Source: Escherichia coli
Lineage (GTDB): Bacteria > Pseudomonadota > Gammaproteobacteria > Enterobacterales > Enterobacteriaceae
Length of the DNA stretch: 64,000 bases
NCBI RefSeq assembly: GCF_011045215.1
Contig: NZ_CP049201.1
Reading direction: 5' to 3' (one strand)
The notes under the pieces were generated by a model. That model was not told the origin of the DNA. It did not search any database and saw nothing but the letters and a program-made list of their open reading frames with translations. Each line of letters starts with the position of its first letter. The first letter of the stretch is position 1. Of this stretch, positions 16,408 to 58,447 are shown piece after piece. The translations under genes and the position numbers were made by a program.

Positions 16408-17613
16408 TCAAACACGCTCCAGAATCATGGCGATGCCCTGACCGACACCGATGCACATGGTGCATAATGCGTAACGACCGTTACGCCGATGCAACTCATG
16501 GCTGGCAGCCAGTGCCAGGCGGGCACCACTCATTCCCAACGGATGGCCTAAGGCGATAGCGCCTCCGTTGGGGTTAACATGTGGGGCATCATCAGGCAGC
16601 CCCAATTCGCGTAGTACACCCAACGCCTGGGCCGCGAACGCTTCGTTCAGTTCAATCACGTCCATATCGTGAATACTCAGCCCCGCGCGTTCCAGCACCC
16701 GGCGAGTTGCAGGCACCGGACCAAGCCCCATCAGACGCGGTTCCACCCCGGCGGTTGCCATGGCTACGATACGCGCTCGCGGCGTCAGTCCATGCGCTGC
16801 TGCCATCTGTTCACTGGCAATAATCAACGCAGCGGCTCCGTCATTCACCCCGGAGGCATTGCCTGCGGTAATCACCCCATTGGCACGAAACGGTGCTTTC
16901 AGCCCACGTAACTGTTCCAGCGTCGTTTCCGGGCGCAGATGCTCATCATGTTGTATTTCTATTACAACACCTTTCTTGTTTTTCAACACAACCGGAACAA
17001 TCTCCTCAGCCAGAATGCCTGAGGATTGCGCTTTTGCCGTACGTTGCTGACTGCGTAGCGCAAAACTATCTTGATCTTCTCGCGAGATTTTTAACAGTTC
17101 AGCTACATTCTCTGCCGTTTCCGGCATGCTGTCAGTTCCAAATTGTTGAGCCATGAGCGGGTTCACAAATCGCCAGCCAATAGTGGTATCAAACATCTCA
17201 GCCTGACGAGAAAATGCACTGGTTGCCTTGCCCATAACAAACGGTGCCCGTGACATTGACTCCACGCCACCGGCGATCAGCAAATCGCCATCGCCCGCTT
17301 TAATCGCCCGTGCGGCGAACCCCAGTGCGTCCAGCCCGGAACCACACAAGCGGTTAATGGTTGTGCCGGAAACACTCTGCGGCAGCCCCGCCAGTAAAGT
17401 CGCCATCCGGGCTACGTTACGGTTATCTTCTCCCGCCTGATTAGCACAGCCGAGGATCACATCATCGATACATTCCGCATCGAGACGCGGGTTTCGCACC
17501 AGCAGTTCCCGCAAAGGGATAGCAGCCAGATCATCAGCCCGAACACCTGATAATGCCCCGCCGTAGCGACCAATTGGCGTACGAATTCCGTCACAAATAA
17601 AGGCTTCACGCAT
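16408..17613 (-). CDS. paaJ: 3-oxoadipyl-CoA / 3-oxo-5,6-dehydrosuberyl-CoA thiolase PaaJ
   Basis: 401 aa; thiolase signatures (catalytic Cys region CGSGLDA, NEAFAAQ, C-terminal [11 protein letters not shown]). Confidence 0.93.
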
Positions 17614-18035
17614 CAGGCTTCTCCTGTAATGGTGCCGCCGATGCGGTGAGATTTACCGCGAAACAGCGCAACCGTTTTTTGTTGTTGGTTAACAATTTCG
17701 ATGTCGTAAACACCGGTTTGCTTGCCCTGATGACGTACCTGCGCAGTAGCAGTTAAGGTGTCTCCGGCAAAGCCTGGACGCAAAAAATCAATCGTGCAGG
17801 CAGAAGCGACGGCTGCCAGCCCCTGGCTATTGCAGGCGTAGGCAAAGGCAGTATCAGCCAGTGAAAATAGCTGCCCGCCGTGGCAACTTTGATGACCATT
17901 AAGCATTTGTGCAGTGACGGTCATGGTCACTACAGCAAAGCCTTCATCCATTGAGGTAATGTCGATGCCAAGCGCTTTGGCGCAGGCATCGTTCTCATAC
18001 ATTGCATGGGCATTTTGCCAGGCCTTATGACTCAT
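17613..18035 (-). CDS. paaI: Hotdog-fold acyl-CoA thioesterase PaaI
   Basis: 140 aa from MSHKAWQNAH; ORF-track upstream extension overlaps paaH. Confidence 0.9.
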   Translation of the reverse strand: MSHKAWQNAHAMYENDACAKALGIDITSMDEGFAVVTMTVTAQMLNGHQSCHGGQLFSLADTAFAYACNSQGLAAVASACTIDFLRPGFAGDTLTATAQVRHQGKQTGVYDIEIVNQQQKTVALFRGKSHRIGGTITGEA

Positions 18036-24863: not shown

Positions 24864-26909
24864 ATGCAGCAGTTAGCCAGTTTCTTATCCGGTACCTGGC
24901 AGTCTGGCCGGGGCCGTAGCCGTTTGATTCATCACGCTATTAGCGGCGAGGCGTTATGGGAAGTGACCAGTGAAGGTCTTGATATGGCGGCTGCCCGCCT
25001 GTTTGCCATTGAAAAAGGTGCCCCAGCCCTTCGCGCTATGACCTTTATCGAACGTGCGGCGATGCTTAAAGCGGTCGCTAAACATCTGCTGAGTGAAAAA
25101 GAGCGTTTCTATGCTCTTTCTGCGCAAACAGGCGCAACGCTGGCAGACAGTTGGGTTGATATTGAAGGCGGTATTGGGACGTTATTTACTTACGCCAGCC
25201 TCGGTAGCCGGGAGCTGCCTGACGATACGCTGTGGCCGGAAGATGAATTGCTCCCCTTATCTAAAGAAGGTGGATTTGCCGCGCGCCATGTACTGACCTC
25301 AAAGTCAGGCGTGGCAGTGCATATTAACGCCTTTAACTTCCCCTGCTGGGGAATGCTGGAAAAGCTGGCACCAACGTGGCTGGGCGGAATGCCAGCCATC
25401 ATCAAACCAGCTACCGCGACGGCCCAACTGACTCAGGCGATGGTGAAATCAATTGTCGATAGTGGTCTTGTTCCCGAAGGCGCAATTAGTCTGATCTGCG
25501 GTAGTGCGGGTGATCTGTTGGATCATCTGGACAGCCAGGATGTGGTGACTTTCACGGGGTCTGCGACGACCGGACAGATGCTGCGAGTTCAGCCAAATAT
25601 CGTAGCCAAATCTATCCCCTTCACTATGGAAGCTGATTCCCTGAACTGCTGCGTACTGGGTGAAGATGTCACCCCGGATCAACCGGAGTTTGCGCTGTTT
25701 ATTCGTGAAGTTGTGCGTGAGATGACCACAAAAGCCGGGCAAAAATGTACGGCAATCCGGCGGATTATTGTGCCGCAAGTATTGGTTAATGCTGTCAGTG
25801 ACGCTCTGGTTGCGCGATTACAGAAAGTCGTGGTCGGTGATCCTGCGCAGGAAGACGTGAAAATGGGCGCACTGGTAAATGCAGAGCAGCGTGCCGATGT
25901 GCAGGAAAAAGTGAACACATTGCTGGCTGCAGGATGCGAGATTCGCCTCGGTGGTCAGGCGGATTTATCTGCTGCGGGTGCCTTCTTCCCGCCAACCTTA
26001 TTGTACTGTCCGCAGCCGGATGAAACACCGGCGGTACATGCAACAGAAGCCTTTGGCCCTGTCGCAACGCTAATGCCAGCACAAAACCAGCAACATGCTC
26101 TGCAACTGGCTTGTGCAGGCGGCGGTAGCCTTGCGGGAACGCTGGTGACGGCTGATCCGCAAATTGCGCGTCAGTTTATTGCCGACGCGGCACGTACGCA
26201 TGGGCGAATTCAGATCCTCAATGAAGAATCGGCAAAAGAATCCACCGGGCATGGCTCCCCACTGCCACAACTGGTACATGGTGGGCCTGGTCGCGCAGGA
26301 GGCGGTGAAGAATTAGGTGGTTTACGGGCGGTGAAACATTACATGCAGCGAACCGCTGTACAGGGTAGTCCGACGATGCTTGCCGCTATCAGTAAACAGT
26401 GGGTGCGTGGTGCGAAAGTCGAAGAAGATCGTATTCATCCGTTCCGCAAATATTTTGAGGAGCTGCAACCAGGCGACAGCCTGCTGACTCCCCGCCGCAC
26501 AATGACAGAGGCCGATATTGTTAACTTTGCTTGCCTCAGCGGCGATCATTTCTATGCACATATGGATAAGATTGCCGCTGCCGAATCTATTTTTGGCGAG
26601 CGAGTAGTACATGGGTATTTTGTGCTTTCTGCGGCTGCGGGTCTGTTTGTCGATGCCGGAGTTGGTCCGGTCATTGCTAACTATGGGCTGGAAAACTTGC
26701 GCTTTATCGAGCCAGTAAAACCAGGTGATACCATCCAGGTGCGTCTTACCTGTAAGCGCAAGACGCTGAAAAAACAGCGTAGCGCAGAAGAAAAACCAAC
26801 AGGTGTGGTGGAATGGGCGGTAGAGGTATTCAATCAGCATCAAACCCCGGTGGCGCTGTATTCAATTCTGACGCTGGTGGCCAGGCAGCACGGTGATTTT
26901 GTCGATTAA
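24864..26909 (+). CDS. paaZ: Bifunctional oxepin-CoA hydrolase / aldehyde dehydrogenase PaaZ
   Basis: 681 aa; N-terminal ALDH domain and C-terminal MaoC-like hydratase domain. Confidence 0.93.
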
Positions 26910-44980: not shown

Positions 44981-45648
44981 TTGCTTTCAACTGAAATTGA
45001 TATGTCATCATCAAAATCCTGTTCAGGGAAAATATCCGCACCTTCAAATTGCAGAGGAGCTAAAATAATTCGCTCACTCCACGCGCTTACTCTGGCAAAT
45101 CCGTCCTGATTCACCATCCCTACCGGATACGACACCTCACAGCGAATTTCTTTATTTGCCGCATCATAATAATACAGAACGATATAAGTTCGGGTGCTAT
45201 CTATCGGCGTGATCTCAGCTTTGCCTGAATGTAAGGTATCTGCTTGGAACATATCGAATGTACCCGGATTGTTGTGAACAATCGAGCGAGTTGCCTCTCC
45301 CTTTGCATTTTTGGTTTTAGGCAATCCATCAGGACGCCCGGTATGTCCGTCACCTGAGGTAATAATCAGATTAACCCCTTTGCTTGAATTAACGACCATT
45401 TCCATGCGATTGACTACTTCAGAAGACCAGCCGTTACCCTTACCAATCAGAATACGGCGAAGCGCGGCAACCATCTCACTCCAAAAGCGGAATCCAGCAT
45501 CCACTTTAGGGTGGAGCTTACTGGATTTGCGTCGCTCGTATAAAGCAGACATTAACGCATCGCGAATATCATTTTCTGTAAAGCCCAGTTTACTAAGTAC
45601 AAAATCCGAATCAATTCCTGTATGCAGAACACAATGAGGCATATTCAT
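44977..45648 (-). CDS. Hypothetical protein, partner of the HTH-peptidase gene
   Basis: ORF with GGGAG RBS before MNMPHCVLH...; stop overlaps next start (ATGA); no family recognised by eye. Confidence 0.6.
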   Translation of the reverse strand: MNMPHCVLHTGIDSDFVLSKLGFTENDIRDALMSALYERRKSSKLHPKVDAGFRFWSEMVAALRRILIGKGNGWSSEVVNRMEMVVNSSKGVNLIITSGDGHTGRPDGLPKTKNAKGEATRSIVHNNPGTFDMFQADTLHSGKAEITPIDSTRTYIVLYYYDAANKEIRCEVSYPVGMVNQDGFARVSAWSERIILAPLQFEGADIFPEQDFDDDISISVESK

Positions 45649-45884
45649 GAAAGTTTCTCCCATCACTTTTACTTCATGATTTTATCATAAAATTTATGCA
45701 AAAATCAAGAAGTGACACCCTGCAAGCGATTGTAGACTTTCTCTTGTTTTCTTACGTTCCTGCTCTCCAATTGCGCAATTGATTTCTTCAACAATATGAG
45801 AGTACACATCATAAACCTCCGACTGCAGCCAGCAACCGGAGCCTCATTCTTCAGATACCAGAACAACTCACTGCGACCTATTCG

Positions 45885-50005: not shown

Positions 50006-50628
50006 TTTTGAATCACCGTTGTTGCATAGGAATAAATAAAAGGGAGTTTTACATATTTCTGGTCAATGGCATCTTTCAGAAAATAGCCTATACCATCACC
50101 ATATTCTGGTATCTGAATAGAAAAAACACTGTCCGATACAGTCACGCTCACATCAAAAGTGTGCTGCAACGGCGGGTCTATTCCGTTTTTTCCATGAATA
50201 AAGCGCGCCACACGGCGCTTTAACCAGTCAATGCAGAAATGCGAACCGTCAGCCTTGTAAAAATTCCACGTTAATATTCGTTTGAAATAATCATCCGGAA
50301 CATACGATGCCTGCCCCGGAACATAATTCCGCATTGCCGCATAAGGGATTGTATTGTATTCAATGGTATCGTATGCGCCGCGTGCAATAGCCTCCTCGGA
50401 AACCTGTAGTAAAGGCCTTTCAACGCCATAAATCCCGAGAGCAATCCAGTCCAGCAATTGCCCGGTTATTGATTCCGATGTCCAGCATGGCAATGCCAGA
50501 TTGTTGAGTGAATCGAGGTATTCCTGAGCAATTTCATTGTATGCATCAAAGAACGCAACAACATTCGGATCATCTCTGTACTGCACAAACGGATAAGCAG
50601 GGAGAATTTTTTCAGTCAGATATTGCAT
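50002..50628 (-). CDS. Baseplate protein (gpI-like, by position)
   Basis: Lies between J-like gene and fibre; start placed at MQYLTEKILP to limit overlap. Confidence 0.5.
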   Translation of the reverse strand: MQYLTEKILPAYPFVQYRDDPNVVAFFDAYNEIAQEYLDSLNNLALPCWTSESITGQLLDWIALGIYGVERPLLQVSEEAIARGAYDTIEYNTIPYAAMRNYVPGQASYVPDDYFKRILTWNFYKADGSHFCIDWLKRRVARFIHGKNGIDPPLQHTFDVSVTVSDSVFSIQIPEYGDGIGYFLKDAIDQKYVKLPFIYSYATTVIQK

Positions 50629-51838
50629 ACTTGTTAACTTGAACCTGTGATGCCACCGTCGAAAAATAGGAATAGGTATCGCCATAAACCAGGCTTGTGT
50701 CTTTTGCCGGAGGAACAATATGGCCATTAATGCCAATGCTCACACTGATTGTTGAGATCAACGTCGCATCAACCAACAATCTGACGGAACTGGTAAAAAT
50801 ATCCTGGATTCGCAGCAGATTTATCGGGTGTCCGACTTCAATAGAATTGATGTAATCAGCAACGTTTTGCTGCACAGCCATAGCAATACCCGCCGGATCA
50901 ACATAATCATCAGATACAGTGTTCCAGGTGATTAGCACCATGACGTTTTGTGATGACGGGATAACGAACGGCACCTGATAAACATCTGGCGAAACGGTTA
51001 TTGAAACCGTGCGTTTTTCCACTGCCGCACCAGATGGATTGCTAACATCGTTGGTCAGTTTCGAAATATCCGGTACAGATTTGTAAATAGCATAAGCCAC
51101 ATCATACGGATCACCGCCACCAACAACCGCAACCCATTTCCCCAGCGACGACTGCCGGAAAGAAATCAGGTTTTCTCGCACACCGCTTACTGATTTGAGC
51201 ATCGCTTTAAAGCAATCCGGTGTTCCCTGCACACCAAACATGCCGGACTCCATGACTTCGGCGCGGTAAGATGCCCACGTTTGCGCCTCCTGACCTGGCA
51301 TCCCTGCGGTAAGGTTCGTGCATTTTACAGGCTGATCTTTGGGTACCGATGTAATGACCTGCGTTACGGTTCCTTCCGGTACAGCCCATGAGCCTGACGT
51401 TGTGGCCACACAGTAGACTGGCTCAGTCTGCCCGCTTTCCGGCACCACCGTATCGCGGGAAACTGCATACTGGTAGTTGCCGTCACCGACAACAAATCCT
51501 TTAGGGATACCAAACCCCGGCAACGCCTCAAACACCACGTATACCGCCGTATTTGTACTTAATCCCTTCTGTGCTCCATAAATGTTTCCGAGTTGCATCA
51601 ATAACGGAATATTTGCGCCGTATGGGCTTACGGAGTTAATAAGGTCCACCCGCGCCTGGTCTATTAATGCCAGCGCCCCGACTGCCGTGCTGGCAAGGTC
51701 AGTAATAAGCCCCGCCGGAAGGTTGGCTGTATATCCAGGTACTTTTTCAGCAACTCTGATGATAAGATCTGCAAGCAAATCATTGGGTGGCGTAGGCTGC
51801 GCCCCCGCACTGGTCATAGTAATTGGTATTTCTGACAT
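50612..51838 (-). CDS. Baseplate wedge protein (gpJ/gp47-like, by position and size)
   Basis: 408 aa; GGAG RBS; order W - J - I - fibre typical of contractile-tail baseplate clusters. Confidence 0.55.
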   Translation of the reverse strand: MSEIPITMTSAGAQPTPPNDLLADLIIRVAEKVPGYTANLPAGLITDLASTAVGALALIDQARVDLINSVSPYGANIPLLMQLGNIYGAQKGLSTNTAVYVVFEALPGFGIPKGFVVGDGNYQYAVSRDTVVPESGQTEPVYCVATTSGSWAVPEGTVTQVITSVPKDQPVKCTNLTAGMPGQEAQTWASYRAEVMESGMFGVQGTPDCFKAMLKSVSGVRENLISFRQSSLGKWVAVVGGGDPYDVAYAIYKSVPDISKLTNDVSNPSGAAVEKRTVSITVSPDVYQVPFVIPSSQNVMVLITWNTVSDDYVDPAGIAMAVQQNVADYINSIEVGHPINLLRIQDIFTSSVRLLVDATLISTISVSIGINGHIVPPAKDTSLVYGDTYSYFSTVASQVQVNKYAISD

Positions 51839-51850
51839 ATTTACTCCATT

Positions 51851-51876
51851 AAAAAACCCGCTTTCGCGGGTTTTTT
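51851..51876. terminator. Intrinsic terminator immediately after the moron gene and 13 nt before the J-like gene
   Basis: AAAAAA-CCCGC-tttc-GCGGG-TTTTTT, perfectly symmetric. Confidence 0.75.
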
Positions 51877-51878
51877 AC

Positions 51879-53054
51879 TTATTCAACCTCTTCTAAACTG
51901 CTCACTCTGGACCCTCGGCGGAAATTATCATCATTTTTAACATACTCGTATGAATCCAGAATCAAACCAGATATGCGAAGTATATCTTCCGGATTAGTTA
52001 TATGTATCCTTTTACCATCCGTATCAAGTCGAGCTCGTCTTATTTCATTCAACTGAACTTCACTAAGCGAAATAGGTAAAGTTATAAATGAAGATTTTTT
52101 ATCATAAAATCTTAACAGCCATCTATTTGTTTTACCATTCAATAGTACACCGAAATATGACTCAGTATCTTTATATTCTATATTATCTTCTGTTTGTATG
52201 ATTTGTTTTACCCTTTCAAATAGCTCCAATTCTTTGGCTGTGGTTATTATGTTGGGGTTTTCTTCATCAACAATGGCGTTATTAACTTGTGTATCCGTTG
52301 CATCATTTTCTTTAGTTTGCTCTACCGGTTGTGTAGATAGCCCGGAAACCACCATTGCGCTAACAGCGCGCTCAACGGCCTGTTTAACTAATGGAGTCAC
52401 GAACTCAAGAAATCTCTGATTAAGTTGTCTCTCAATATTTGAACGACTAGCAACATATCGAACAAACTCCAGATCAACTTCACGAAGACTAGAACTGATT
52501 GTTTTAGTAAATGAATTCAAATAAACACTTTCTTCAGCCAGTGTCCGTAAAGCCTCTGGTTTGAATTTATCATAACGAAAACGAAATAATTGTGTAATAT
52601 CGGAGTGAGTTAGAGAATCCATTCTTAATTTTAAAAACGGCGTTGAATCCATTATGTTTTTTTGTTTCAAATCCGTAAAAAAACGCCATTCAACACCATT
52701 TGTAATGGCTGATATAGTAACTTCCGGTGTTGAATTAAAATATCTTGATAGCTGTGGGCAGTGATTATCAATTTGTTCTGAAAACGATTTCGCCTCAATG
52801 AACATCACAGGAACATCATGACAAAATAAAGCGTAATCAACCCGTTCATTAGCCTTAACCCCGGGGAAGTCAGCACTATACTCAGCTTTGACTTTTCTTG
52901 GATCATACGGAGTAAAACCAAGAATATCTAGTAATGGCATAATGAGTGCTTGTTTTGTCGTTTCTTCAGTTGTACAAAACACCCCCATTTTTGCAACATG
53001 CTCTGTGTGTATTTTTAACTTATTTGCAAAATTTTCCATGCTTGTCTCCTCCAT
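51879..53054 (-). CDS. Orphan HsdR-N-like PD-(D/E)xK nuclease-domain protein (AT-rich moron; candidate defence gene)
   Basis: N-terminal motifs ETTKQALIMPLLDILGF / RVDYALF / VMFIEAKS / QLSRYF / AITNGVEWRFF as in type I R-subunit N-domains; C-terminal ~270 aa unassigned; AT-rich; likely start at second ATG (53039) after GGAGGAG. Confidence 0.7.
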   Translation of the reverse strand: MEETSMENFANKLKIHTEHVAKMGVFCTTEETTKQALIMPLLDILGFTPYDPRKVKAEYSADFPGVKANERVDYALFCHDVPVMFIEAKSFSEQIDNHCPQLSRYFNSTPEVTISAITNGVEWRFFTDLKQKNIMDSTPFLKLRMDSLTHSDITQLFRFRYDKFKPEALRTLAEESVYLNSFTKTISSSLREVDLEFVRYVASRSNIERQLNQRFLEFVTPLVKQAVERAVSAMVVSGLSTQPVEQTKENDATDTQVNNAIVDEENPNIITTAKELELFERVKQIIQTEDNIEYKDTESYFGVLLNGKTNRWLLRFYDKKSSFITLPISLSEVQLNEIRRARLDTDGKRIHITNPEDILRISGLILDSYEYVKNDDNFRRGSRVSSLEEVE

Positions 53055-53188
53055 GGTAACAATATGTATTTTGCAAATCCGAAATAATATATGTCAATAT
53101 GCTCCAGCTTAGAAAATTACTCGCCCCCCTAAAATATCTCTCTACAGCACTCCAAACCAAGGTAAAAGTTTTATCATAAAACTGTGAT

Positions 53189-53536
53189 TCATACCGGCAC
53201 CTGCGTCCGGTAACTGGTCCCATTAAAAAACACAACATCGATGTTATAGGTGGGGTTATCTGCTCCATCTACCTTTGAAATTGCCAGTGATGCAAAATAC
53301 CCAGCAAACTGTTGCTGAACCATGTTCACATAGTAGTCTGGGTAAATCTGCTGCACGATGCACTGCTGCGCAGGAATACCGTAATTCGCGTAAAACGGCG
53401 ACTCCCCCAATCCCAGCTTTAACGTCTGAATGAGCGTCGTCAGCCAGCCGTAGGAGAAATCACCGTTGGCGTCAGATTCTACTGCAACCCATTTTTTGTT
53501 GCCGTTCGCGTCGGTGACGCGGCCCCATGTTCTCAT
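53189..53536 (-). CDS. Baseplate protein (gpW/gp25-like)
   Basis: 115 aa; LKLGLGESPFYANYGIP resembles the gp25/W-family core; position before J. Confidence 0.5.
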   Translation of the reverse strand: MRTWGRVTDANGNKKWVAVESDANGDFSYGWLTTLIQTLKLGLGESPFYANYGIPAQQCIVQQIYPDYYVNMVQQQFAGYFASLAISKVDGADNPTYNIDVVFFNGTSYRTQVPV

Positions 53537-53736
53537 CGTGCCCCCATCACTTTAACTAACTCTGTCAGTACTGGTGAAAAGGCAAATGCTAAAGCTACGA
53601 GTGCAGCGGTGTAATACATGCGTCGTAAGGTATTGCTTTTTGCCACTAATTTTAAGGCTTTCACAATCCAGTCTCCTCCGCTAAAATTAATCACGGAAGA
53701 CCTCCAAACATACGTAATCATCCCTTGCGTATTCAA
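53533..53736 (-). CDS. Small hypothetical protein with hydrophobic C-terminal segment
   Basis: 67-aa ORF overlapping W-like start by 4 nt; TAALVALAFAFSPVL stretch; coding status unverified. Confidence 0.35.
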   Translation of the reverse strand: MNTQGMITYVWRSSVINFSGGDWIVKALKLVAKSNTLRRMYYTAALVALAFAFSPVLTELVKVMGAR

Positions 53737-53747
53737 GGTGAGAAACA

Positions 53748-53786
53748 GAAAACCCCGACTGGGCCAACAGTCGGGTTTTTCGTTTT
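53748..53786. terminator. Intrinsic terminator-like hairpin between spike gene and downstream baseplate genes
   Basis: CCCGACTG-ggccaa-CAGTCGGG with flanking A/T runs on both strands. Confidence 0.55.
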
Positions 53787-53818
53787 ATGGTCAGAATTTA
53801 AAGTGAAATGAACCGGTA

Positions 53819-54532
53819 TTAACCAGGATTTGGTTTCTTCGACGTAATCGTGCTGCTGCCGCTTTGAACACCAGTCACATCGTGGCTGTGGCCGCTGACG
53901 CTCACGCCGTTGATAACTGCATCCATCTCGACATTAAGAGGACCAATCAGCGAAGCGGTTGTATCCTTCATCTGGGCTTTGTCCTGGACGATCGGTCCGT
54001 TGAGGTGAATTTTCCCGTTCAGGAAAATATCTTCGGCCTCGAGGTAAACAGCTTTCGACTTTTGCCTGATTTCTTCCAGAGCCACCATTACCGAGCTACT
54101 GCCGTCCTCTGTTTTGAGGATCGCGCCATCCGGACCGTACAAAACGATTTTTTGCGGATCTTCGTCGGACCACTCCTTGTTTGCCAGTGGCACGAAAAAC
54201 AGGGGAGTGAGCGACATCGAGTAAGAAAGCGTTGCCATACCGGTTCCCAATCCGGACACACCGCGCAGTGATACATCAGCGGCAATTGTTACTCCTCGAT
54301 CGCCCGGCTGTATCGGGTAACGGATATACGGGAATGTGGCGACAGGGATTGTTATCTGCGGGAAGTTGATCCCCTCCGGCAACATATCAAACTGAACTGT
54401 CACTATTTGCCCGCAGATATCGACAACATGGCAGGGCAATTCGCGGCCTTTAAGCTCGGCTTGTTGGTTACCAGAACTGGTCATCATCTCCGACAGTGTT
54501 CGGAGAAACGGTAATTTTTGAGCGTTTGACAT
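53819..54532 (-). CDS. Baseplate central spike protein (gpV/gp5-like)
   Basis: 237 aa; C-terminal HxH motif (VSGHSHDVTG) as in metal-binding spike tips; position after hub. Confidence 0.6.
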   Translation of the reverse strand: MSNAQKLPFLRTLSEMMTSSGNQQAELKGRELPCHVVDICGQIVTVQFDMLPEGINFPQITIPVATFPYIRYPIQPGDRGVTIAADVSLRGVSGLGTGMATLSYSMSLTPLFFVPLANKEWSDEDPQKIVLYGPDGAILKTEDGSSSVMVALEEIRQKSKAVYLEAEDIFLNGKIHLNGPIVQDKAQMKDTTASLIGPLNVEMDAVINGVSVSGHSHDVTGVQSGSSTITSKKPNPG

Positions 54533-55539
54533 TACACCCTCGCCCAGTTCTCAGCATATGCCTCAAATACCGTCACCCAGGCATCGCCATCGGCTGTCAG
54601 ATACGAACCAATGTGTCTGACTGATTTCACAAGAAATTTCCCGGTGAACGTGGTCGAATTTTTTGCGATAACGCTGGGTACCGTTGTATTAGCCATCACA
54701 ATCGACGCAGCGCCAGAATATAGCCCCTCCGGCAGTTTAACCACATCACCACATCTGATATCGCCTCTCATAGGGCATTTGAAACTGACGGTAAACGGCG
54801 CTATCCATGTCGGCTGCCCGACCAGTTCATGGGCATGAATTGTTTTTGGCTCACCCCACTTTGCCGATGCGTTATCGTAGATTCGTATTCTGTCGGAAAG
54901 AATACTGATGGCGATTCCGCTATACCTTTCATTACGCATCATCGCAATAGAGGCGTTTTTTACGACCATAGCCAGCGAACCAATCTCCGTATATTTGCCC
55001 GTCCACGGCTCTGGCAAAACCAGGTTGTCGCTGACTGTGCAATCAATAAGTTTATTGGGATATGCTTTTTGCAAAGCGCGGACTAAAACATCGCCCACCC
55101 TTTCCCCTGCTTCCCCCTGCCCCTCAATTGAAAAAGGTTTACCGTCATCGGTTTTGCGTATGCTTGGATTTATTACCAGGTTTAAAGTCTGGTTCGTGCC
55201 GATCCAGTTGGCATAGGCCAGATAAATTTCACCATAGATTACCTCCCCCTGTTGATCCTTATTTGCCAGTGGTAACCCCTGAACAAAGCCTGCTTTCATA
55301 CGTACCAGACAACCCTGCAAACTTACGCTTTGCTTCAGCATGTCAATTGGTAATCCATAGATCGTCAGCATCGTACCCGAACAGACTACATCCAGGCCGG
55401 TTACTTCAAAGTCAAATTCAACATGTAACCCACATCCTGGTGTTTCATTGGTATCAAAAGGTCCAATGGGTTTTCCATTGCTATCCACTGGCGGCTTGCC
55501 TGTTTTAGGATTAATAATTTCCAGTCGGTAATAACGCAT
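54532..55539 (-). CDS. Baseplate hub protein (gpD/gp27-like, by position)
   Basis: 335 aa immediately upstream of spike; tight coupling. Confidence 0.45.
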   Translation of the reverse strand: MRYYRLEIINPKTGKPPVDSNGKPIGPFDTNETPGCGLHVEFDFEVTGLDVVCSGTMLTIYGLPIDMLKQSVSLQGCLVRMKAGFVQGLPLANKDQQGEVIYGEIYLAYANWIGTNQTLNLVINPSIRKTDDGKPFSIEGQGEAGERVGDVLVRALQKAYPNKLIDCTVSDNLVLPEPWTGKYTEIGSLAMVVKNASIAMMRNERYSGIAISILSDRIRIYDNASAKWGEPKTIHAHELVGQPTWIAPFTVSFKCPMRGDIRCGDVVKLPEGLYSGAASIVMANTTVPSVIAKNSTTFTGKFLVKSVRHIGSYLTADGDAWVTVFEAYAENWARV

Positions 55540-56473: not shown

Positions 56474-58447
56474 TTACCCCGGTATTTGTTGCGTTCCGGC
56501 GAGTTGTGCCAGTATGTCGGAACCCGGCGATTGTCGCACCTGAAGCTCAATTATTGCGCGGGCATTTTTGCCAGCACCCTGAAGGTTATCTCTGGCATTT
56601 CTTAGCTGATTCATAATACCAGGGTGTTGATCCAAAGCTCCCTGTATCTGAGGCAATAATTTAATTAAATATTTTACAGTCTCCATTCTCAAACTTAGAT
56701 TTCCATCTCTATCAATACGACCTCCGTTATATGCCGTAAGCATTTTTGCCACATCGCCTTTATAACGCCGGTTCAGATCATTTAAAAAGCGGCCAGCCGC
56801 AAGAGTGGATTTATTTGGGTCATAAACATCATCACCCACCAGACCATACTGTTTTGCGGTGCTATCCCAGAATTGCCACAACCCCTTAGCGAATCTACCT
56901 TTTTCATCTGGAGTTCCTCTTGCCAGAGGATTCCACGAAGATTCAACCTCCGCGATAGCTGACATCATATTTTTAGGAAGTCGATAAGTATTATTGGCTT
57001 GCTCTACAAAGTTCTGAATATTTCTCTTTAAATCATTAGGCATACGGTAATTTTTATATACATCATCCTGTTTATAAAACTCACCCGTATACTGATTTGT
57101 CATCGGGTTTGCTCCCGGCAACGCACCACCGAGATATTTATTCCCAAATGCCGCAAGAACTGGATCTGCCTGTTCAGCACCAACTCCGGTTCCGGGGAGA
57201 TATTTATCTTCCCCACCGATCCATTTGATAGCTGACCATATTGCTTTTGCAATCCGGCTCACCGCCAGAGAAAAATCGTCAAGATCATTTTTAAATTGTT
57301 CGCTATTCAGCCACTTACCAAGTTTCTCCAGCCCTTCGCCAGCCTCAGTGAGAATTTTCTGAAAATTTCCACCATTCAGAAAACCTTCAATATTGGATGT
57401 CAGCCCATCAGATGCACCTGTGATTAGTGGGTTATATCTGGCGAGAGCTGCATACCAGGAATTTGATATTCTGTTTCCATTTACCATCAGGTTACTCACC
57501 GTATCCTGATAACCTGACTGCATAGCTGGCGTGAGGTAAGCACCGAGCAACCTGGTATTTGATGCAAATTTCTCGTTCAGTTGGGGGATCTTGTCCAGAT
57601 TCGCTTCCACCTGGTTAGTTGTCGCGACATCAACAAATCCAAGCCCTTGTCCGTTGAGAATCCCCTGAGTAAGTCCTGAACCTTTATATTGCTTAACGAG
57701 AGATGCAAGCGCGCTCATAAGTTTGGGCAGATTCTTTGCTGCACCATCTCGAGGATCAATTCCAAGACTGACCAGACCAGCATAGTTTGGATCATTCGGA
57801 TTTTTCTGTGCGTTCGCCAGATGCTGAACCAGTTCTTCTGTGCCAGAAAAATATGGCGAATAGGTGGCACGTGCGGCCTGCATCTGTGCGGTTTCCATAC
57901 CCAGCCCCTGAGCCACGCTGTATTGCGCTGCAACCTTGCTCGCCATATATCCGTACCCGAAAGCACCGACCGAACCAAGCGCCGCAATTTTGCTCCCCCA
58001 GGATACAGTCGTTTTAAACAGCGTTTTCAGTCGTGAATTGGTCGTTTTAAGCGTTGAATTGATCTGCTTGTAAGTTTTCAGCGTCCCCTGAGCGTTTTTA
58101 CCCAGACTACTGAGATACTTATCAAACATCGTTTCGCCGCGACCTTTATAGTTGCTCACCAGCGAATCAGGTGTTTTTCCGCTACCGACAAAGCTCCCTT
58201 TTTCATCCCTTAAACGTCCATCGGTGGGCGCAGGTGAAGATGGTTTCCTGGGAGCCTGATTGGCTTCTCCGCCCGAGGTTGCCTGCTGCGTGCCACCTCC
58301 TAGACCTGTATTTGAAGGTATTTTAAGCGGCGTCCCCGCAGGGCCAATCATCAGCCCATTGCGATACTTTTCAAATATCGCCTCAAGTCGCTTAAGGTGT
58401 TCTTCATTAACGTCCAGTGTCAGAACTGGCATCTGATTACCTGACAT
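56474..58447 (-). CDS. Tail tape measure protein with lytic transglycosylase-like domain
   Basis: 657 aa, Gly/Ala-rich; SLT-like motif AIAEVESSWNPLA...GLWQFWDSTA; follows frameshift chaperone. Confidence 0.75.
   Translation of the reverse strand: MSGNQMPVLTLDVNEEHLKRLEAIFEKYRNGLMIGPAGTPLKIPSNTGLGGGTQQATSGGEANQAPRKPSSPAPTDGRLRDEKGSFVGSGKTPDSLVSNYKGRGETMFDKYLSSLGKNAQGTLKTYKQINSTLKTTNSRLKTLFKTTVSWGSKIAALGSVGAFGYGYMASKVAAQYSVAQGLGMETAQMQAARATYSPYFSGTEELVQHLANAQKNPNDPNYAGLVSLGIDPRDGAAKNLPKLMSALASLVKQYKGSGLTQGILNGQGLGFVDVATTNQVEANLDKIPQLNEKFASNTRLLGAYLTPAMQSGYQDTVSNLMVNGNRISNSWYAALARYNPLITGASDGLTSNIEGFLNGGNFQKILTEAGEGLEKLGKWLNSEQFKNDLDDFSLAVSRIAKAIWSAIKWIGGEDKYLPGTGVGAEQADPVLAAFGNKYLGGALPGANPMTNQYTGEFYKQDDVYKNYRMPNDLKRNIQNFVEQANNTYRLPKNMMSAIAEVESSWNPLARGTPDEKGRFAKGLWQFWDSTAKQYGLVGDDVYDPNKSTLAAGRFLNDLNRRYKGDVAKMLTAYNGGRIDRDGNLSLRMETVKYLIKLLPQIQGALDQHPGIMNQLRNARDNLQGAGKNARAIIELQVRQSPGSDILAQLAGTQQIPG

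What the first reader, a model, noticed from the sequence alone, without database searches (positions are those of the whole stretch)
53533..53819. Terminator hairpin and small membrane-like ORF inside the baseplate operon
A GC-rich hairpin with A/T runs on both sides (53748-53786) lies between the spike gene and the next genes, only ~12 nt before a 67-aa ORF with a hydrophobic C-terminal segment. Together with the terminator at 51851-51876 this brackets a ~1.9-kb block (small ORF, W-like gene, moron). Either late transcription uses antitermination/read-through, or the block has partly independent expression.
Basis: seen in the sequence. Interest (0 to 1): 0.4.

Follow-up and report, generated by a model that had tools for sequence, protein, structure and literature searches.

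The report
Terminator-led small membrane protein cassette
A strong two-way transcription stop signal and a 53-residue membrane-protein gene inside this E. coli prophage's baseplate operon are one mobile unit that recurs at many different junctions in the late operons of lambda-like phages (Shiga-toxin phages included), pointing to an undescribed, tightly silenced, late-acting small peptide.

Summary
A conserved, covarying GC hairpin with an A-run and a U-run (core 53754-53775) lies 43 nt after the spike gene on the minus strand. A genuine small single-pass membrane-protein gene follows it.

Its stop overlaps the start of the gpW-like gene (ATGA).

The two features are not an operon terminator plus a chance ORF. 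They form one cassette:
- More distant relatives of this tail module have the spike stop abutting the gpW start, with neither feature.
- Homologues of the peptide sit at 10 or more other late-operon junctions (endolysin-Rz in H-19B and Stx phages, lambda M-L, before J, before the tape measure). They are almost always preceded, 23-59 nt upstream, by the same kind of hairpin.
- Every complete carrier examined is a lambdoid phage with a Q antiterminator. That explains read-through.

A conserved promoter-like motif on the opposite strand (TTCACA-16-TAAAAT, 53660-53687) and frozen synonymous sites in the first 12-21 codons suggest a ~95-nt cis-antisense RNA ending at the hairpin (type I toxin-antitoxin-like). 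This is inferred, not shown.

The second terminator (51851-51876) belongs to a separate, classical moron. Function is unknown, and no known family matches.

The parts
53742..53787 (.). Bidirectional intrinsic-terminator-like hairpin. A-run, then core stem 53754-53761 / 53768-53775 with loop 53762-53767, then U-run, read on either strand.
   Evidence: Extended 43-nt helix -19.7 kcal/mol. Covariation in 6 of 12 pairs across 22 variants.
53533..53694 (-). Small single-pass membrane-protein gene, 53 aa: MINFSGGDWIVKALKLVAKSNTLRRMYYTAALVALAFAFSPVLTELVKVMGAR. GTG start; the stop TGA overlaps the ATG of the next gene (ATGA).
   Evidence: The N-terminal NFSGGDWIV is conserved at protein level in distant homologues. 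Synonymous changes accumulate in the 3' half. 99 homologues, all annotated 'hypothetical'.
53701..53705 (-). Shine-Dalgarno GGAGG, 6 nt upstream of GTG 53694.
   Evidence: Sequence. GGAGGTCTTCCGTG is invariant in A-type relatives.
53662..53679 (-). Internal SD GGAGGAG (53679-53673) plus internal GTG (53664-53662), the start of a possible 43-aa short form.
   Evidence: PGAP annotates this 43-aa form, WP_001434759.1. ORFs at non-first positions in arrays, and a deletion variant (L109), start at the equivalent internal start.
53660..53687 (+). Antisense sigma-70 promoter-like site: TTCACA (53660-53665), 16 nt, TAAAAT (53682-53687). It lies inside codons 3-12 of the small ORF.
   Evidence: 10/12 match. 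One match in the window against 0.02 expected. Conserved in A-type relatives, including the most distant ones. Transcription not shown.
53693..53787 (+). Predicted ~95-nt cis-antisense RNA. It would start opposite the ORF start codon, cover the SD and leader, and end at the hairpin's plus-strand U-run. Hypothetical.
   Evidence: Inferred from the promoter-like site and the terminator. Folds at -31.6 kcal/mol, z = -3.9. No Rfam match.
53723..53738 (-). Weak leader mini-hairpin CCUUG-AAUACG-CAAGG between terminator and SD.
   Evidence: Recurs in different sequence in relatives, but leader folds are not better than shuffles.
53819..54532 (-). Upstream neighbour: baseplate spike (gpV-like). Its stop is 43 nt before the hairpin.
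   Evidence: weak TIGR01644 phage_P2_V. PGAP calls it 'phage baseplate protein'.
53189..53536 (-). Downstream neighbour: gpW-position baseplate gene (phrog_7986), translationally coupled to the small ORF.
51851..53097 (-). A separate, classical moron. Promoter-like TTGACA-18-CAAAAT (53097-53068); HSDR_N-domain 'type I restriction endonuclease'-like gene (51879-53039/53054, GC 0.36); terminator AAAAAACCCGC-GAAA-GCGGGUUUUUU (51876-51851), 13 nt before the SD of baseplate J.

Best explanation
The hairpin and the small ORF are two halves of one mobile, terminator-headed cassette. It has been inserted between the spike and gpW-like genes of a Rac-type lambdoid prophage.

Shown:
- The hairpin is a conserved, covarying, bidirectional intrinsic-terminator-like element.
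- The ORF is a real gene for a ~53-aa single-pass membrane protein.
- The two co-occur at many unrelated late-operon junctions.
- There is no room for a sense promoter between them.
- Every complete carrier examined has a Q antiterminator at the head of a single-strand late operon.

Inferred, sense direction: the ORF can only be transcribed through its own upstream terminator. The peptide is therefore made only by Q-modified, terminator-resistant RNA polymerase late in lytic growth, and stray transcription in the lysogen stops at the hairpin.

Inferred, antisense direction: the same hairpin most likely terminates a ~95-nt cis-antisense RNA. Its promoter would lie in codons 3-12 of the ORF, and its 5' end opposite the start codon. 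That RNA would cover the SD and start codon and keep the peptide untranslated in lysogens. This is a type I toxin-antitoxin-like geometry, like SymE/SymR.

The peptide itself is proposed to be a membrane-perturbing late accessory factor (lysis timing or exclusion). Its function is unknown.
For: Insertion:
- 24 more distant relatives of this tail module have the spike stop 0-17 nt from the gpW start, with neither hairpin nor ORF. The E. coli clade has a 196-838-nt slot holding the hairpin plus 1-4 small TM ORFs.

Linkage:
- 38 of 39 unique cassette heads carry the A-run/GC-stem/U-run hairpin 23-59 nt upstream of the start.
- So do all further heads fetched from other contexts, including the four most distant homologues.
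- The junctions include spike-gpW in three baseplate lineages, endolysin-Rz or lipoprotein in at least five lysis-cassette types (H-19B, SPN3UB, phiSTEC1589), lambda gpM-gpL, before gpJ, chaperone-TMP, and the operon end.

Structure and coding:
- Hairpin covariation: 6 of 12 pairs.
- Coding: the B-type protein is identical across many synonymous variants, and the N-terminus is conserved in distant members.

Transcription context:
- No sense promoter found.
- Q is present in Rac-SA53, EC11, SEN34, SPN3UB, the Sakai Sp15 prophage and L091.
- A second strong terminator lies 13 nt before J's SD, so read-through is needed anyway.

Antisense RNA:
- TTCACA-16-TAAAAT, 10/12.
- The -10-like TAnnnT sits at ORF nt 5-13 in the A, B (TGcTAAAAT) and two C-type heads, against a 1.2% background.
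- Residues there vary (D/N/H, F/L/I, S/N) while the nucleotides AT-xTT-A stay fixed.
- Synonymous diversity is about 0 in codons 1-12 (A-type) or 1-21 (B-type), against 0.5-0.8 further 3'.
- In some variants only the antisense-direction U-run is good (L090, L178, L179).
- Precedent: convergent sRNAs at moron sites of EHEC lambdoid prophages (PMC4104026).
Against: - No transcript, protein or toxicity data exist.
- The antisense -35 (the reverse complement of TGTGAA) coincides with the internal GTG start and its SD. A dual-start (long/short isoform) arrangement, plus ordinary constraints on translation-initiation regions, could explain the frozen synonymous sites and much of the motif.
- B-type heads lack a usable -35 and rely on an extended -10.
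- Many loci are near-identical prophages, so the independent observations are fewer than the counts suggest.
- One variant (L109) has lost the hairpin and the first six codons, and one (L016) has the hairpin replaced. The hairpin is therefore not indispensable.
- The hairpin motif as such is a generic terminator shape: only 5 of 123 arbitrary viral matches adjoin the family.
- There is no similarity to any known toxin, holin, Sie or sRNA family.
Confidence: 0.5

Rival explanations
1. Q-gated late accessory gene without any antisense RNA. The hairpin is only an upstream insulator. The nucleotide-level constraint on the ORF's 5' end reflects two translation starts (53-aa and 43-aa isoforms, holin/antiholin-style) and their initiation regions. 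The peptide modulates lysis or the membrane late in infection.
For: - There is a strong internal SD GGAGGAG plus GTG 53664.
- The equivalent in B-type is GGGAG plus ATG at codon 14.
- ORFs at non-first array positions, and deletion variant L109, use the internal start.
- PGAP calls the 43-aa form.
- The cassette recurs between endolysin and Rz.
- The constrained region (nt 1-36 in A-type, 1-63 in B-type) equals the span of two initiation regions.
Against: - It does not explain why the 5' A-run (the antisense-direction U-run) is kept even where the sense U-run has decayed.
- It does not explain why residues at codons 2-5 change while the AT-xTT-A nucleotides do not.
- In A-type, synonymous freedom resumes immediately after the internal GTG.
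- No holin family matches.
Confidence: 0.25
2. An ordinary moron expressed from the repressed prophage: a small inner-membrane protein that gives the lysogen superinfection exclusion, like HK97 gp15.
For: - It is an insertion absent from related phages.
- It is a small TM protein in a tail operon. One homologue (L308) sits exactly at the HK97 gp15 position, between tail chaperone T and the tape measure (PMC3594210).
- The slot is hypervariable, with 1-4 different TM ORFs, which suggests an arms race.
- GC is slightly lower (0.43 against 0.50-0.51).
Against: - The defining moron features fail. There is no sense promoter, and the leader is too short to hold one (23-59 nt).
- The terminator is upstream, not downstream.
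- The stop overlaps the next late gene's start.
- The cassette is always co-oriented with the late operon.
- No YebO/gp15 similarity.
Confidence: 0.1
3. One reading: the hairpin is an operon-internal terminator or attenuator that belongs to the spike gene and sets transcript stoichiometry or bounds a 1.9-kb sub-operon. The small ORF is incidental.
For: - The hairpin directly follows the spike stop.
- A second terminator lies 1.9 kb downstream.
- In relatives with an opposite-strand ant moron after gpW, no scan-level terminator lies between ant and this position (the bulged hairpin itself falls below the scan's criteria), so the hairpin is the first terminator that transcript would meet.
Against: - The hairpin is absent from relatives lacking the ORF.
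- It follows the ORF family to lysis cassettes and lambda-type tails, where the upstream gene is unrelated.
- The second terminator belongs to an independent moron, and the two slots vary independently.
Confidence: 0.05
4. A decaying or selfish remnant: the cassette spreads by recombination at permissive junctions, and the peptide has no function for phage or host.
For: - The family is narrow: 43 clusters at 50% identity among 1.84 billion representatives.
- L006 has a frameshift in an A-run, and there are deletion and IS variants.
- The window's exact type is complete in only 18 of 5,426 complete E. coli genomes.
Against: - Strong purifying selection on the protein, with many synonymous and few non-synonymous changes.
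- Strong SDs.
- Translational coupling.
- A conserved architecture across Escherichia, Salmonella, Yersinia, Citrobacter, Enterobacter, Klebsiella and Providencia.
Confidence: 0.05

Closest known systems
Morons of lambdoid phages (e.g. HK97 gene 15; Juhala et al. 2000; Cumby et al. 2012, PMC3594210)
   Same: - Extra DNA inserted between conserved late genes and absent from relatives.
- Tolerated because late transcription is Q-antiterminated.
- The product is a small inner-membrane protein.
- One homologue occupies the very junction of HK97 gp15.
   Different: - A moron is an independent unit with its own promoter upstream and terminator downstream, for expression from the repressed prophage. 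Here there is no sense promoter.
- Here the terminator is upstream.
- Here the ORF is translationally coupled to the next late gene.
- No sequence similarity to gp15/YebO.
- The neighbouring HSDR_N gene (51851-53097) is the textbook moron, by contrast.
Type I toxin-antitoxin modules with a 5'-overlapping cis-antisense RNA (SymE/SymR geometry; Hok/Sok; own knowledge. hokW-sokW in prophage Sp5, PMC8621323)
   Same: - A small hydrophobic peptide under 60 aa.
- A predicted antisense RNA whose promoter lies in the first codons and which covers the SD and start codon.
- A location in lambdoid prophages.
- Tandem arrays of related small TM ORFs.
   Different: - The antisense RNA is only predicted.
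- The toxin has no promoter of its own and rides on the late operon through a terminator.
- No similarity to Hok, Ldr, Ibs, TisB, ShoB, Zor or DinQ, or to their RNAs in Pfam or Rfam.
- Toxicity is untested.
Convergent sRNA pairs and 'anti-sRNAs' (AsxR, AgvB) at moron sites downstream of PR' in EHEC lambdoid prophages (Tree et al. 2014, PMC4104026)
   Same: - Short RNAs encoded antisense to the Q-dependent late operon.
- They end at Rho-independent terminators.
- They lie at conserved positions in lambdoid prophages.
   Different: - A different location: those lie between the moron CDS and the next ORF near PR'.
- No sequence or Rfam relationship.
- Those RNAs act in trans on core sRNAs and are not paired with a small TM ORF.
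PHROG phrog_6632 (and phrog_4906), small phage proteins of unknown function
   Same: - The B-type relatives of the window's peptide (e.g. Rac-SA53 rac58, SEN34_23) match phrog_6632 at 1e-14 to 1e-28.
- The second TM type (Sakai ECs_5741) matches phrog_4906.
   Different: - The window's A-type peptide matches no PHROG.
- Its link to B-type rests on intermediates such as L046/P0001 and a joint profile.
- Neither PHROG has a known function or a described upstream terminator.

Membership tests
Rho-independent (intrinsic) terminator | GC-rich stem-loop | tested here: met
   8-bp core with 6 GC pairs and a 6-nt loop. It extends to about 18 pairs with A-U pairs.
Rho-independent (intrinsic) terminator | U-tract immediately 3' of the stem | tested here: met
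   Minus strand GUUUUCUGUUUCU; plus strand UUUUUCGUUUU. Both are listed by the scan.
Rho-independent (intrinsic) terminator | Structure maintained by compensatory change among homologues | tested here: met
   6 of 12 pairs have double compensatory changes in 22 variants.
Rho-independent (intrinsic) terminator | RNA 3' ends at the U-tract in vivo, and their suppression by Q | not testable with these tools
   Needs Term-seq or reporter assays.
Moron (independent transcription unit in a phage late operon) | Extra DNA absent from otherwise related phages | tested here: met
   24 relatives have the spike stop 0-17 nt from the gpW start.
Moron (independent transcription unit in a phage late operon) | Own promoter upstream of the gene | tested here: not met
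   No sense-strand promoter-like site in the window or in four relatives. The leader after the hairpin is only 23-59 nt.
Moron (independent transcription unit in a phage late operon) | Own terminator downstream of the gene | tested here: not met
   The terminator is upstream. The ORF stop overlaps the next gene's ATG.
Moron (independent transcription unit in a phage late operon) | Deviant base composition | tested here: inconclusive
   GC is 0.43 for the ORF and leader, against 0.50-0.51 for the flanking genes. The true moron next door is 0.36.
Moron (independent transcription unit in a phage late operon) | Expression from the repressed prophage | not testable with these tools
   No transcript data.
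Type I toxin-antitoxin system | Small (under 60 aa) hydrophobic, membrane-targeted peptide | tested here: met
   53 aa, one TM-length segment, basic N-terminal half.
Type I toxin-antitoxin system | Antisense RNA gene overlapping the toxin mRNA | tested here: inconclusive
   There is a promoter-like site (10/12, 0.02 expected), a plus-strand terminator, frozen synonymous sites, and a -10 conserved in position across head types. The same nucleotides also encode an internal SD and start.
Type I toxin-antitoxin system | Toxicity of the peptide and neutralisation by the RNA | not testable with these tools
   Requires expression experiments.
Type I toxin-antitoxin system | Similarity to a described toxin or antitoxin family | tested here: not met
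   No Pfam, NCBIfam or PADLOC hit for the peptide, and no Rfam hit at the locus.
HK97 gp15 / YebO superinfection-exclusion proteins | Sequence similarity to the YebO family | tested here: not met
   No Pfam family at E<=1 for nine family members, apart from chance-level hits.
HK97 gp15 / YebO superinfection-exclusion proteins | Exclusion of incoming phage when expressed from the prophage | not testable with these tools
   Requires plating assays.
Holin / antiholin | Match to a holin family | tested here: not met
   No holin Pfam or PHROG hit.
Holin / antiholin | Location in the lysis cassette | tested here: inconclusive
   Not in this window (baseplate). Homologues repeatedly lie between endolysin and Rz, downstream of separate holin genes.
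Holin / antiholin | Dual-start motif giving two isoforms | tested here: inconclusive
   Two SD/start pairs lie 10 codons apart. Usage is unknown.
phrog_6632 | Significant match to the PHROG profile | tested here: not met
   The window peptide matches 0 families. B-type relatives match at 1e-14 to 1e-28. The relationship is only seen through a joint profile.

The most novel reading that the evidence does not exclude
The cassette is a previously undescribed, self-silencing late-gene module of lambdoid phages. It comprises a membrane-active peptide, a cis-antisense RNA promoted from within the peptide's first codons, and one bidirectional terminator that serves two roles: it ends the antisense RNA, and it makes sense-strand expression conditional on Q antitermination. 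In effect this is a new type I toxin-antitoxin family. It is wired to the lytic switch, it hops between late-operon junctions, and it is present in Shiga-toxin phages (for example the unannotated R-Rz gap of H-19B).
Probability: 0.4. Interest if true: 0.7.

Novelty: new variant of a known kind. Interest (0 to 1): 0.58.

Why it matters
If the reading is right, several things follow.

- Lambdoid phages, including medically important Stx phages, carry a widespread, almost entirely unannotated class of small membrane peptides. Their expression would be locked to Q antitermination by a terminator placed in front of the gene rather than behind it. This inverts moron logic: "never in the lysogen, only in the lytic cycle".
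- It gives a concrete, cheap test bed for how toxic late functions are insulated in prophages.
- It adds a candidate new antisense-RNA/peptide pair to the type I TA repertoire.
- It flags genes that may affect lysis timing or exclusion, and therefore toxin and phage release.
- It is also a practical annotation lesson. The gene is missed or mis-started by pipelines: it is absent in several PGAP annotations, called at 43 aa where annotated, and left blank in H-19B and SPN3UB.

Tried and rejected
- **Rfam.** I scanned the window at 51000-55000 (E<=10) and 11 related loci (E<=0.1). Nothing matched at the cassette.
- **Protein libraries.** Pfam, NCBIfam, PADLOC and PHROGs gave nothing for the window peptide.
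- **The 67-aa TTG start.** Rejected. It lies in the U-tract and is out of frame or stopped in A'-type relatives.
- **The plus-strand 62-aa ORF (53618-53806).** Rejected. It runs through the hairpin and the variable leader.
- **A sense promoter between hairpin and ORF.** TTGAAT-18-TATGTT scores only 8/12, its spacing is not conserved (18 against 19 nt), and it cannot fit in B-type heads, whose leader is 28 nt.
- **The leader mini-hairpin as a conserved SD-occluding structure.** Folds are no better than shuffles.
- **Mapping onto published EHEC Hfq-bound sRNAs.** In Sakai Sp15 the first ORF and hairpin are replaced by an ant insertion, so the data set is uninformative here.
- **The hairpin as a specific RNA family.** The motif AAAACCCCG-N8-18-CGGGGTTTT is a generic terminator shape. 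Only 5 of 123 arbitrary viral matches adjoin the family.
- **PDB sequence search for the Q-position protein.** It gave only E = 0.28 to Q21. Pfam settled the question instead.
- **Literature.** Searches for a described gene between R and Rz, or for a late-operon type I TA of this kind, found none.
- **The search for related loci with the mixed A/B alignment.** It failed because the alignment had no conserved stretch. The B-only alignment worked.
Full report
**Setting.** The tail genes lie on the minus strand. In order they are:
- a tape-measure/lytic-transglycosylase gene (56474-58447);
- two small genes;
- a baseplate hub (54532-55539, phrog_196);
- a spike (53819-54532);
- the finding itself;
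- a gpW-position gene (53189-53536, phrog_7986);
- an HSDR_N-domain 'type I restriction endonuclease'-like gene (51879-53054);
- baseplate J (50612-51838);
- a gpI-position gene, then fibres.

The region is 99.6-99.8% identical to prophages in bovine and environmental E. coli, and about 94% identical in the conserved parts to phage Rac-SA53. Rac-SA53 and the EC11 prophage are complete Rac-type lambdoid prophages at ttcA. In both, a Q-position gene is followed by lysis, head and tail genes on one strand. That Q-position protein (DUF1133) also passes Pfam's Phage_antitermQ cut-off.

- The hairpin has an 8-bp core (53754-53761 / 53768-53775), a 6-nt loop, an A-run on one side and a U-run on the other.
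- It is the best terminator-like site on both strands in a 12-kb scan.
- It folds better than all but 1 of 200 shuffles.
- The ORF frame exists and ends in a TM-length hydrophobic segment.
- The start is wrong. TTG 53736 lies in the U-tract and is not conserved in frame. GTG 53694 has a GGAGG SD 6 nt upstream.
- The residues between the two candidate starts (NFSGGDWIV) are conserved as protein in homologues down to about 40% identity. The product is therefore most likely 53 aa.
- An internal SD and GTG (53679-53662) could also give the 43-aa form that PGAP annotates.
- The stop overlaps the gpW-like start (ATGA).

**Comparative anatomy of the slot.** I fetched 80 loci encoding the gpW-like protein.
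- In the 24 more distant ones (60-85% identity), the spike stop is 0-17 nt from the gpW start. They have no hairpin and no small ORF.
- In the E. coli clade the gap is 196-838 nt (longer where a larger gene has been added, as in L037, L041, L054 and L057). It always begins with the hairpin, followed by one to four small single-TM ORFs of several types (A, A', A'', B, B', C).
- The hairpin is therefore part of an insertion, not of the ancestral operon.
- The gpW-J slot is a second, independent hot spot. It holds the HSDR_N gene here, and ant, LprI-like or other genes, often on the opposite strand, elsewhere.
- In the window that second insertion is a textbook moron. It has a promoter-like TTGACA-18-CAAAAT (53097-53068), a low-GC gene (0.36), and a strong terminator (51876-51851, z = -3.75) only 13 nt before J's SD.

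**The hairpin travels with the ORF.**
- A profile of the A- and B-type peptides finds 99 proteins. All are 'hypothetical', and all come from Enterobacterales.
- An exhaustive HMM search finds only 43 clusters at 50% identity among 1.84 billion representatives.
- B-type members are phrog_6632, of unknown function. The window's A-type matches nothing.
- Their genomic places are strikingly diverse:
  - spike-gpW in two further baseplate lineages (SEN34; L094);
  - endolysin-Rz or endolysin-lipoprotein in at least five different lysis cassettes, including the unannotated R-Rz gaps of H-19B, SPN3UB and phiSTEC1589-Stx1c;
  - lambda-type gpM-gpL;
  - just before gpJ;
  - tail chaperone-tape measure, which is the HK97 gp15 position;
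  - after the tail-fibre assembly gene;
  - next to an immI-like Arc/ant region.
- The upstream neighbour is co-oriented with the cassette in essentially all loci.
- 38 of 39 unique cassette heads have an A-run/GC-stem/U-run hairpin 23-59 nt upstream of the start. The exception is an IS-like replacement.
- All additional heads fetched from other contexts have one too, including the four most distant homologues.
- Across 22 variants the stem covaries: 6 of 12 pairs show double changes.
- The converse does not hold. The motif is a generic terminator shape.
- Within arrays, only the first ORF has the hairpin.

**How it is likely expressed.**
- No sense-strand promoter-like site lies between hairpin and ORF, and the leader is too short to hold one. 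Any mRNA for the peptide must therefore be transcribed through the terminator.
- Every complete carrier examined has a Q-type antiterminator at the head of the late operon: Rac-SA53, EC11, SEN34 (Antiterm, 1e-50), SPN3UB and L091. Sakai Sp15, whose cassette is disrupted by an ant insertion, has Q too.
- It is established knowledge that Q-modified polymerase reads through intrinsic terminators across lambdoid late operons.
- The inference is that the peptide is made only during Q-driven late transcription, and that the hairpin blocks stray transcription in the lysogen.
- This inverts the moron design (own promoter, downstream terminator, prophage expression; PMC3594210).

**A probable antisense partner.** Three observations point to a plus-strand RNA.
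1. The A-run, which is the U-run for the opposite strand, is conserved. In L090, L178 and L179 only the antisense-direction U-run is good.
2. A promoter-like site, TTCACA-16-TAAAAT (10/12), lies at 53660-53687. There is one match in the window against 0.02 expected.
   - It is conserved in the A-type heads examined, including in distant homologues whose ORFs are otherwise diverged; the -35 or the -10 is weaker in a few (L175, L177, L178, L179).
   - B-type heads have an extended -10 (TGcTAAAAT) at the same place.
   - Two unrelated C-type heads have TAGAAT or TGtTATTCT there. The background for such a hexamer at that offset is 1.2%.
   - The residues encoded over the -10 vary (D/N/H, F/L/I, S/N) while the nucleotides AT-xTT-A do not.
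3. Synonymous diversity is about 0 in codons 1-12 (A-type) or 1-21 (B-type), and 0.5-0.8 further 3'.

The predicted RNA (about 53693-53787) would start opposite the start codon, cover the SD, and end at the hairpin. It folds with z = -3.9. From my own knowledge, this is the geometry of SymE/SymR. It also has a precedent in the convergent sRNAs at moron sites of EHEC prophages (PMC4104026).

The caveat is serious. The -35 is the reverse complement of the internal GTG start region, so a dual-start arrangement and ordinary initiation-region constraints explain much of the same signal. No transcript data were available.

**Function.**
- The peptide has a basic, amphipathic N-terminal half, one TM segment and a short tail.
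- Purifying selection is clear. The B-type protein is identical across many synonymous variants.
- Copy number varies from 0 to 4. The cassette is absent from related phages and has been exchanged between tail and lysis junctions. All of this argues against a structural baseplate role and for an accessory role.
- Its recurrent place between endolysin and Rz, together with its gated expression, suggests a membrane-active late function (lysis timing or exclusion). This is a guess.

**Verdict.** It is best filed as a new variant of moron or type I TA logic.

Noticed in passing
window 51851-53097 (minus strand): A textbook moron between the gpW-like gene and baseplate J. It has a promoter-like TTGACA-18-CAAAAT, an HSDR_N-domain 'type I restriction endonuclease'-like gene (phrog_4225, GC 0.36; no PADLOC hit), and a strong bidirectional terminator 13 nt before J's SD. 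The true start is probably ATG 53039 (SD GGAGGAG), as PGAP has it, not 53054.
   Followed up: partly
L001, L002, L027-L032 and other relatives: gpW-J slot (equivalent to window ~51840-53190): The gpW-J junction is a second hypervariable cargo slot. It carries ant/AntA-AntB antirepressors, an LprI-family lysozyme-inhibitor-like gene or hypothetical genes, often on the opposite strand and converging on gpW. In Rac-SA53 the ant CDS overlaps the 3' end of gpW by 25 nt, and no terminator is detected before the cassette hairpin.
   Followed up: partly
L028 3907-3991 (minus strand): A match above the gathering score to Rfam sRNA-Xcc1 (RF02221, 69.7 bits, E = 1e-10), inside the gpW-J cargo slot of a relative. 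This RNA family is usually associated with integrons and mobile elements.
   Followed up: no
L173 2483-2632 (P13374 ORF53); L184 24749-24895 (Sakai ECs_5741); L091 2638-2772: A second, unrelated small TM family (phrog_4906, ~44-49 aa, e.g. MISDKLITLVKSLCVLVGISFLVMLVAIFF...). It sits immediately upstream of Rz in many Stx phages, often after an inserted ant gene, and often as the second ORF of the cassette.
   Followed up: partly
L181 (H-19B, record 17392-17690); L183 (SPN3UB, record 45300-45698); L174 2501-2899: Well-known phage records leave the 300-400-nt gap between endolysin R and Rz unannotated. That gap holds the hairpin plus a B-type small TM ORF.
   Followed up: yes
L006 ~2875 (equivalent to window ~53640): One close relative has an extra A in the run GCAAAAAGC, which frameshifts the small ORF. 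This is either a pseudogene or a homopolymer sequencing error.
   Followed up: no
L007, L008, L011 against window 53745-53787: Near-identical prophages differ at the base of the hairpin by symmetric changes (AAAACCCG... / AAACCCCG... / AACCCCCG... / ACCCCCCG... with matching changes on the 3' arm). A-U pairs are replaced by C-G pairs on both arms. This is an unusual pattern for such closely related sequences.
   Followed up: no
L109 ~2500; L016 ~2330-2380: Two natural 'mutants' of the cassette head. L109 has lost the hairpin, the leader and the first six codons, leaving the 32-aa core directly after the spike stop. L016 has the hairpin replaced by the 3' end of a 532-aa ORF, a likely insertion element.
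   Followed up: partly
L002 (PP818812.1): A record named Actinobacillus phage vB_Apl-pPE4 is ~94% identical over the conserved baseplate genes to this E. coli Rac-type prophage and has the same gene order as Rac-SA53. The stated host looks doubtful.
   Followed up: no
L003 8733-10611 (E. coli NWU_3): In the closest genome match the prophage is rearranged. The hub gene is truncated and abuts an HTH gene and the DUF1133/Q region, so about 20 kb of head, tail and lysis genes are deleted.
   Followed up: no
L184 ~24895-24960 (Sakai Sp15, minus strand): The 3' end of the ant gene between endolysin and Rz reads ...ATGCTGATTGATTTTGTC.... This retains the cassette ORF's first codons (TTGATTGATTTT), as if ant had been inserted into, or recombined with, a former cassette head.
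   Followed up: no
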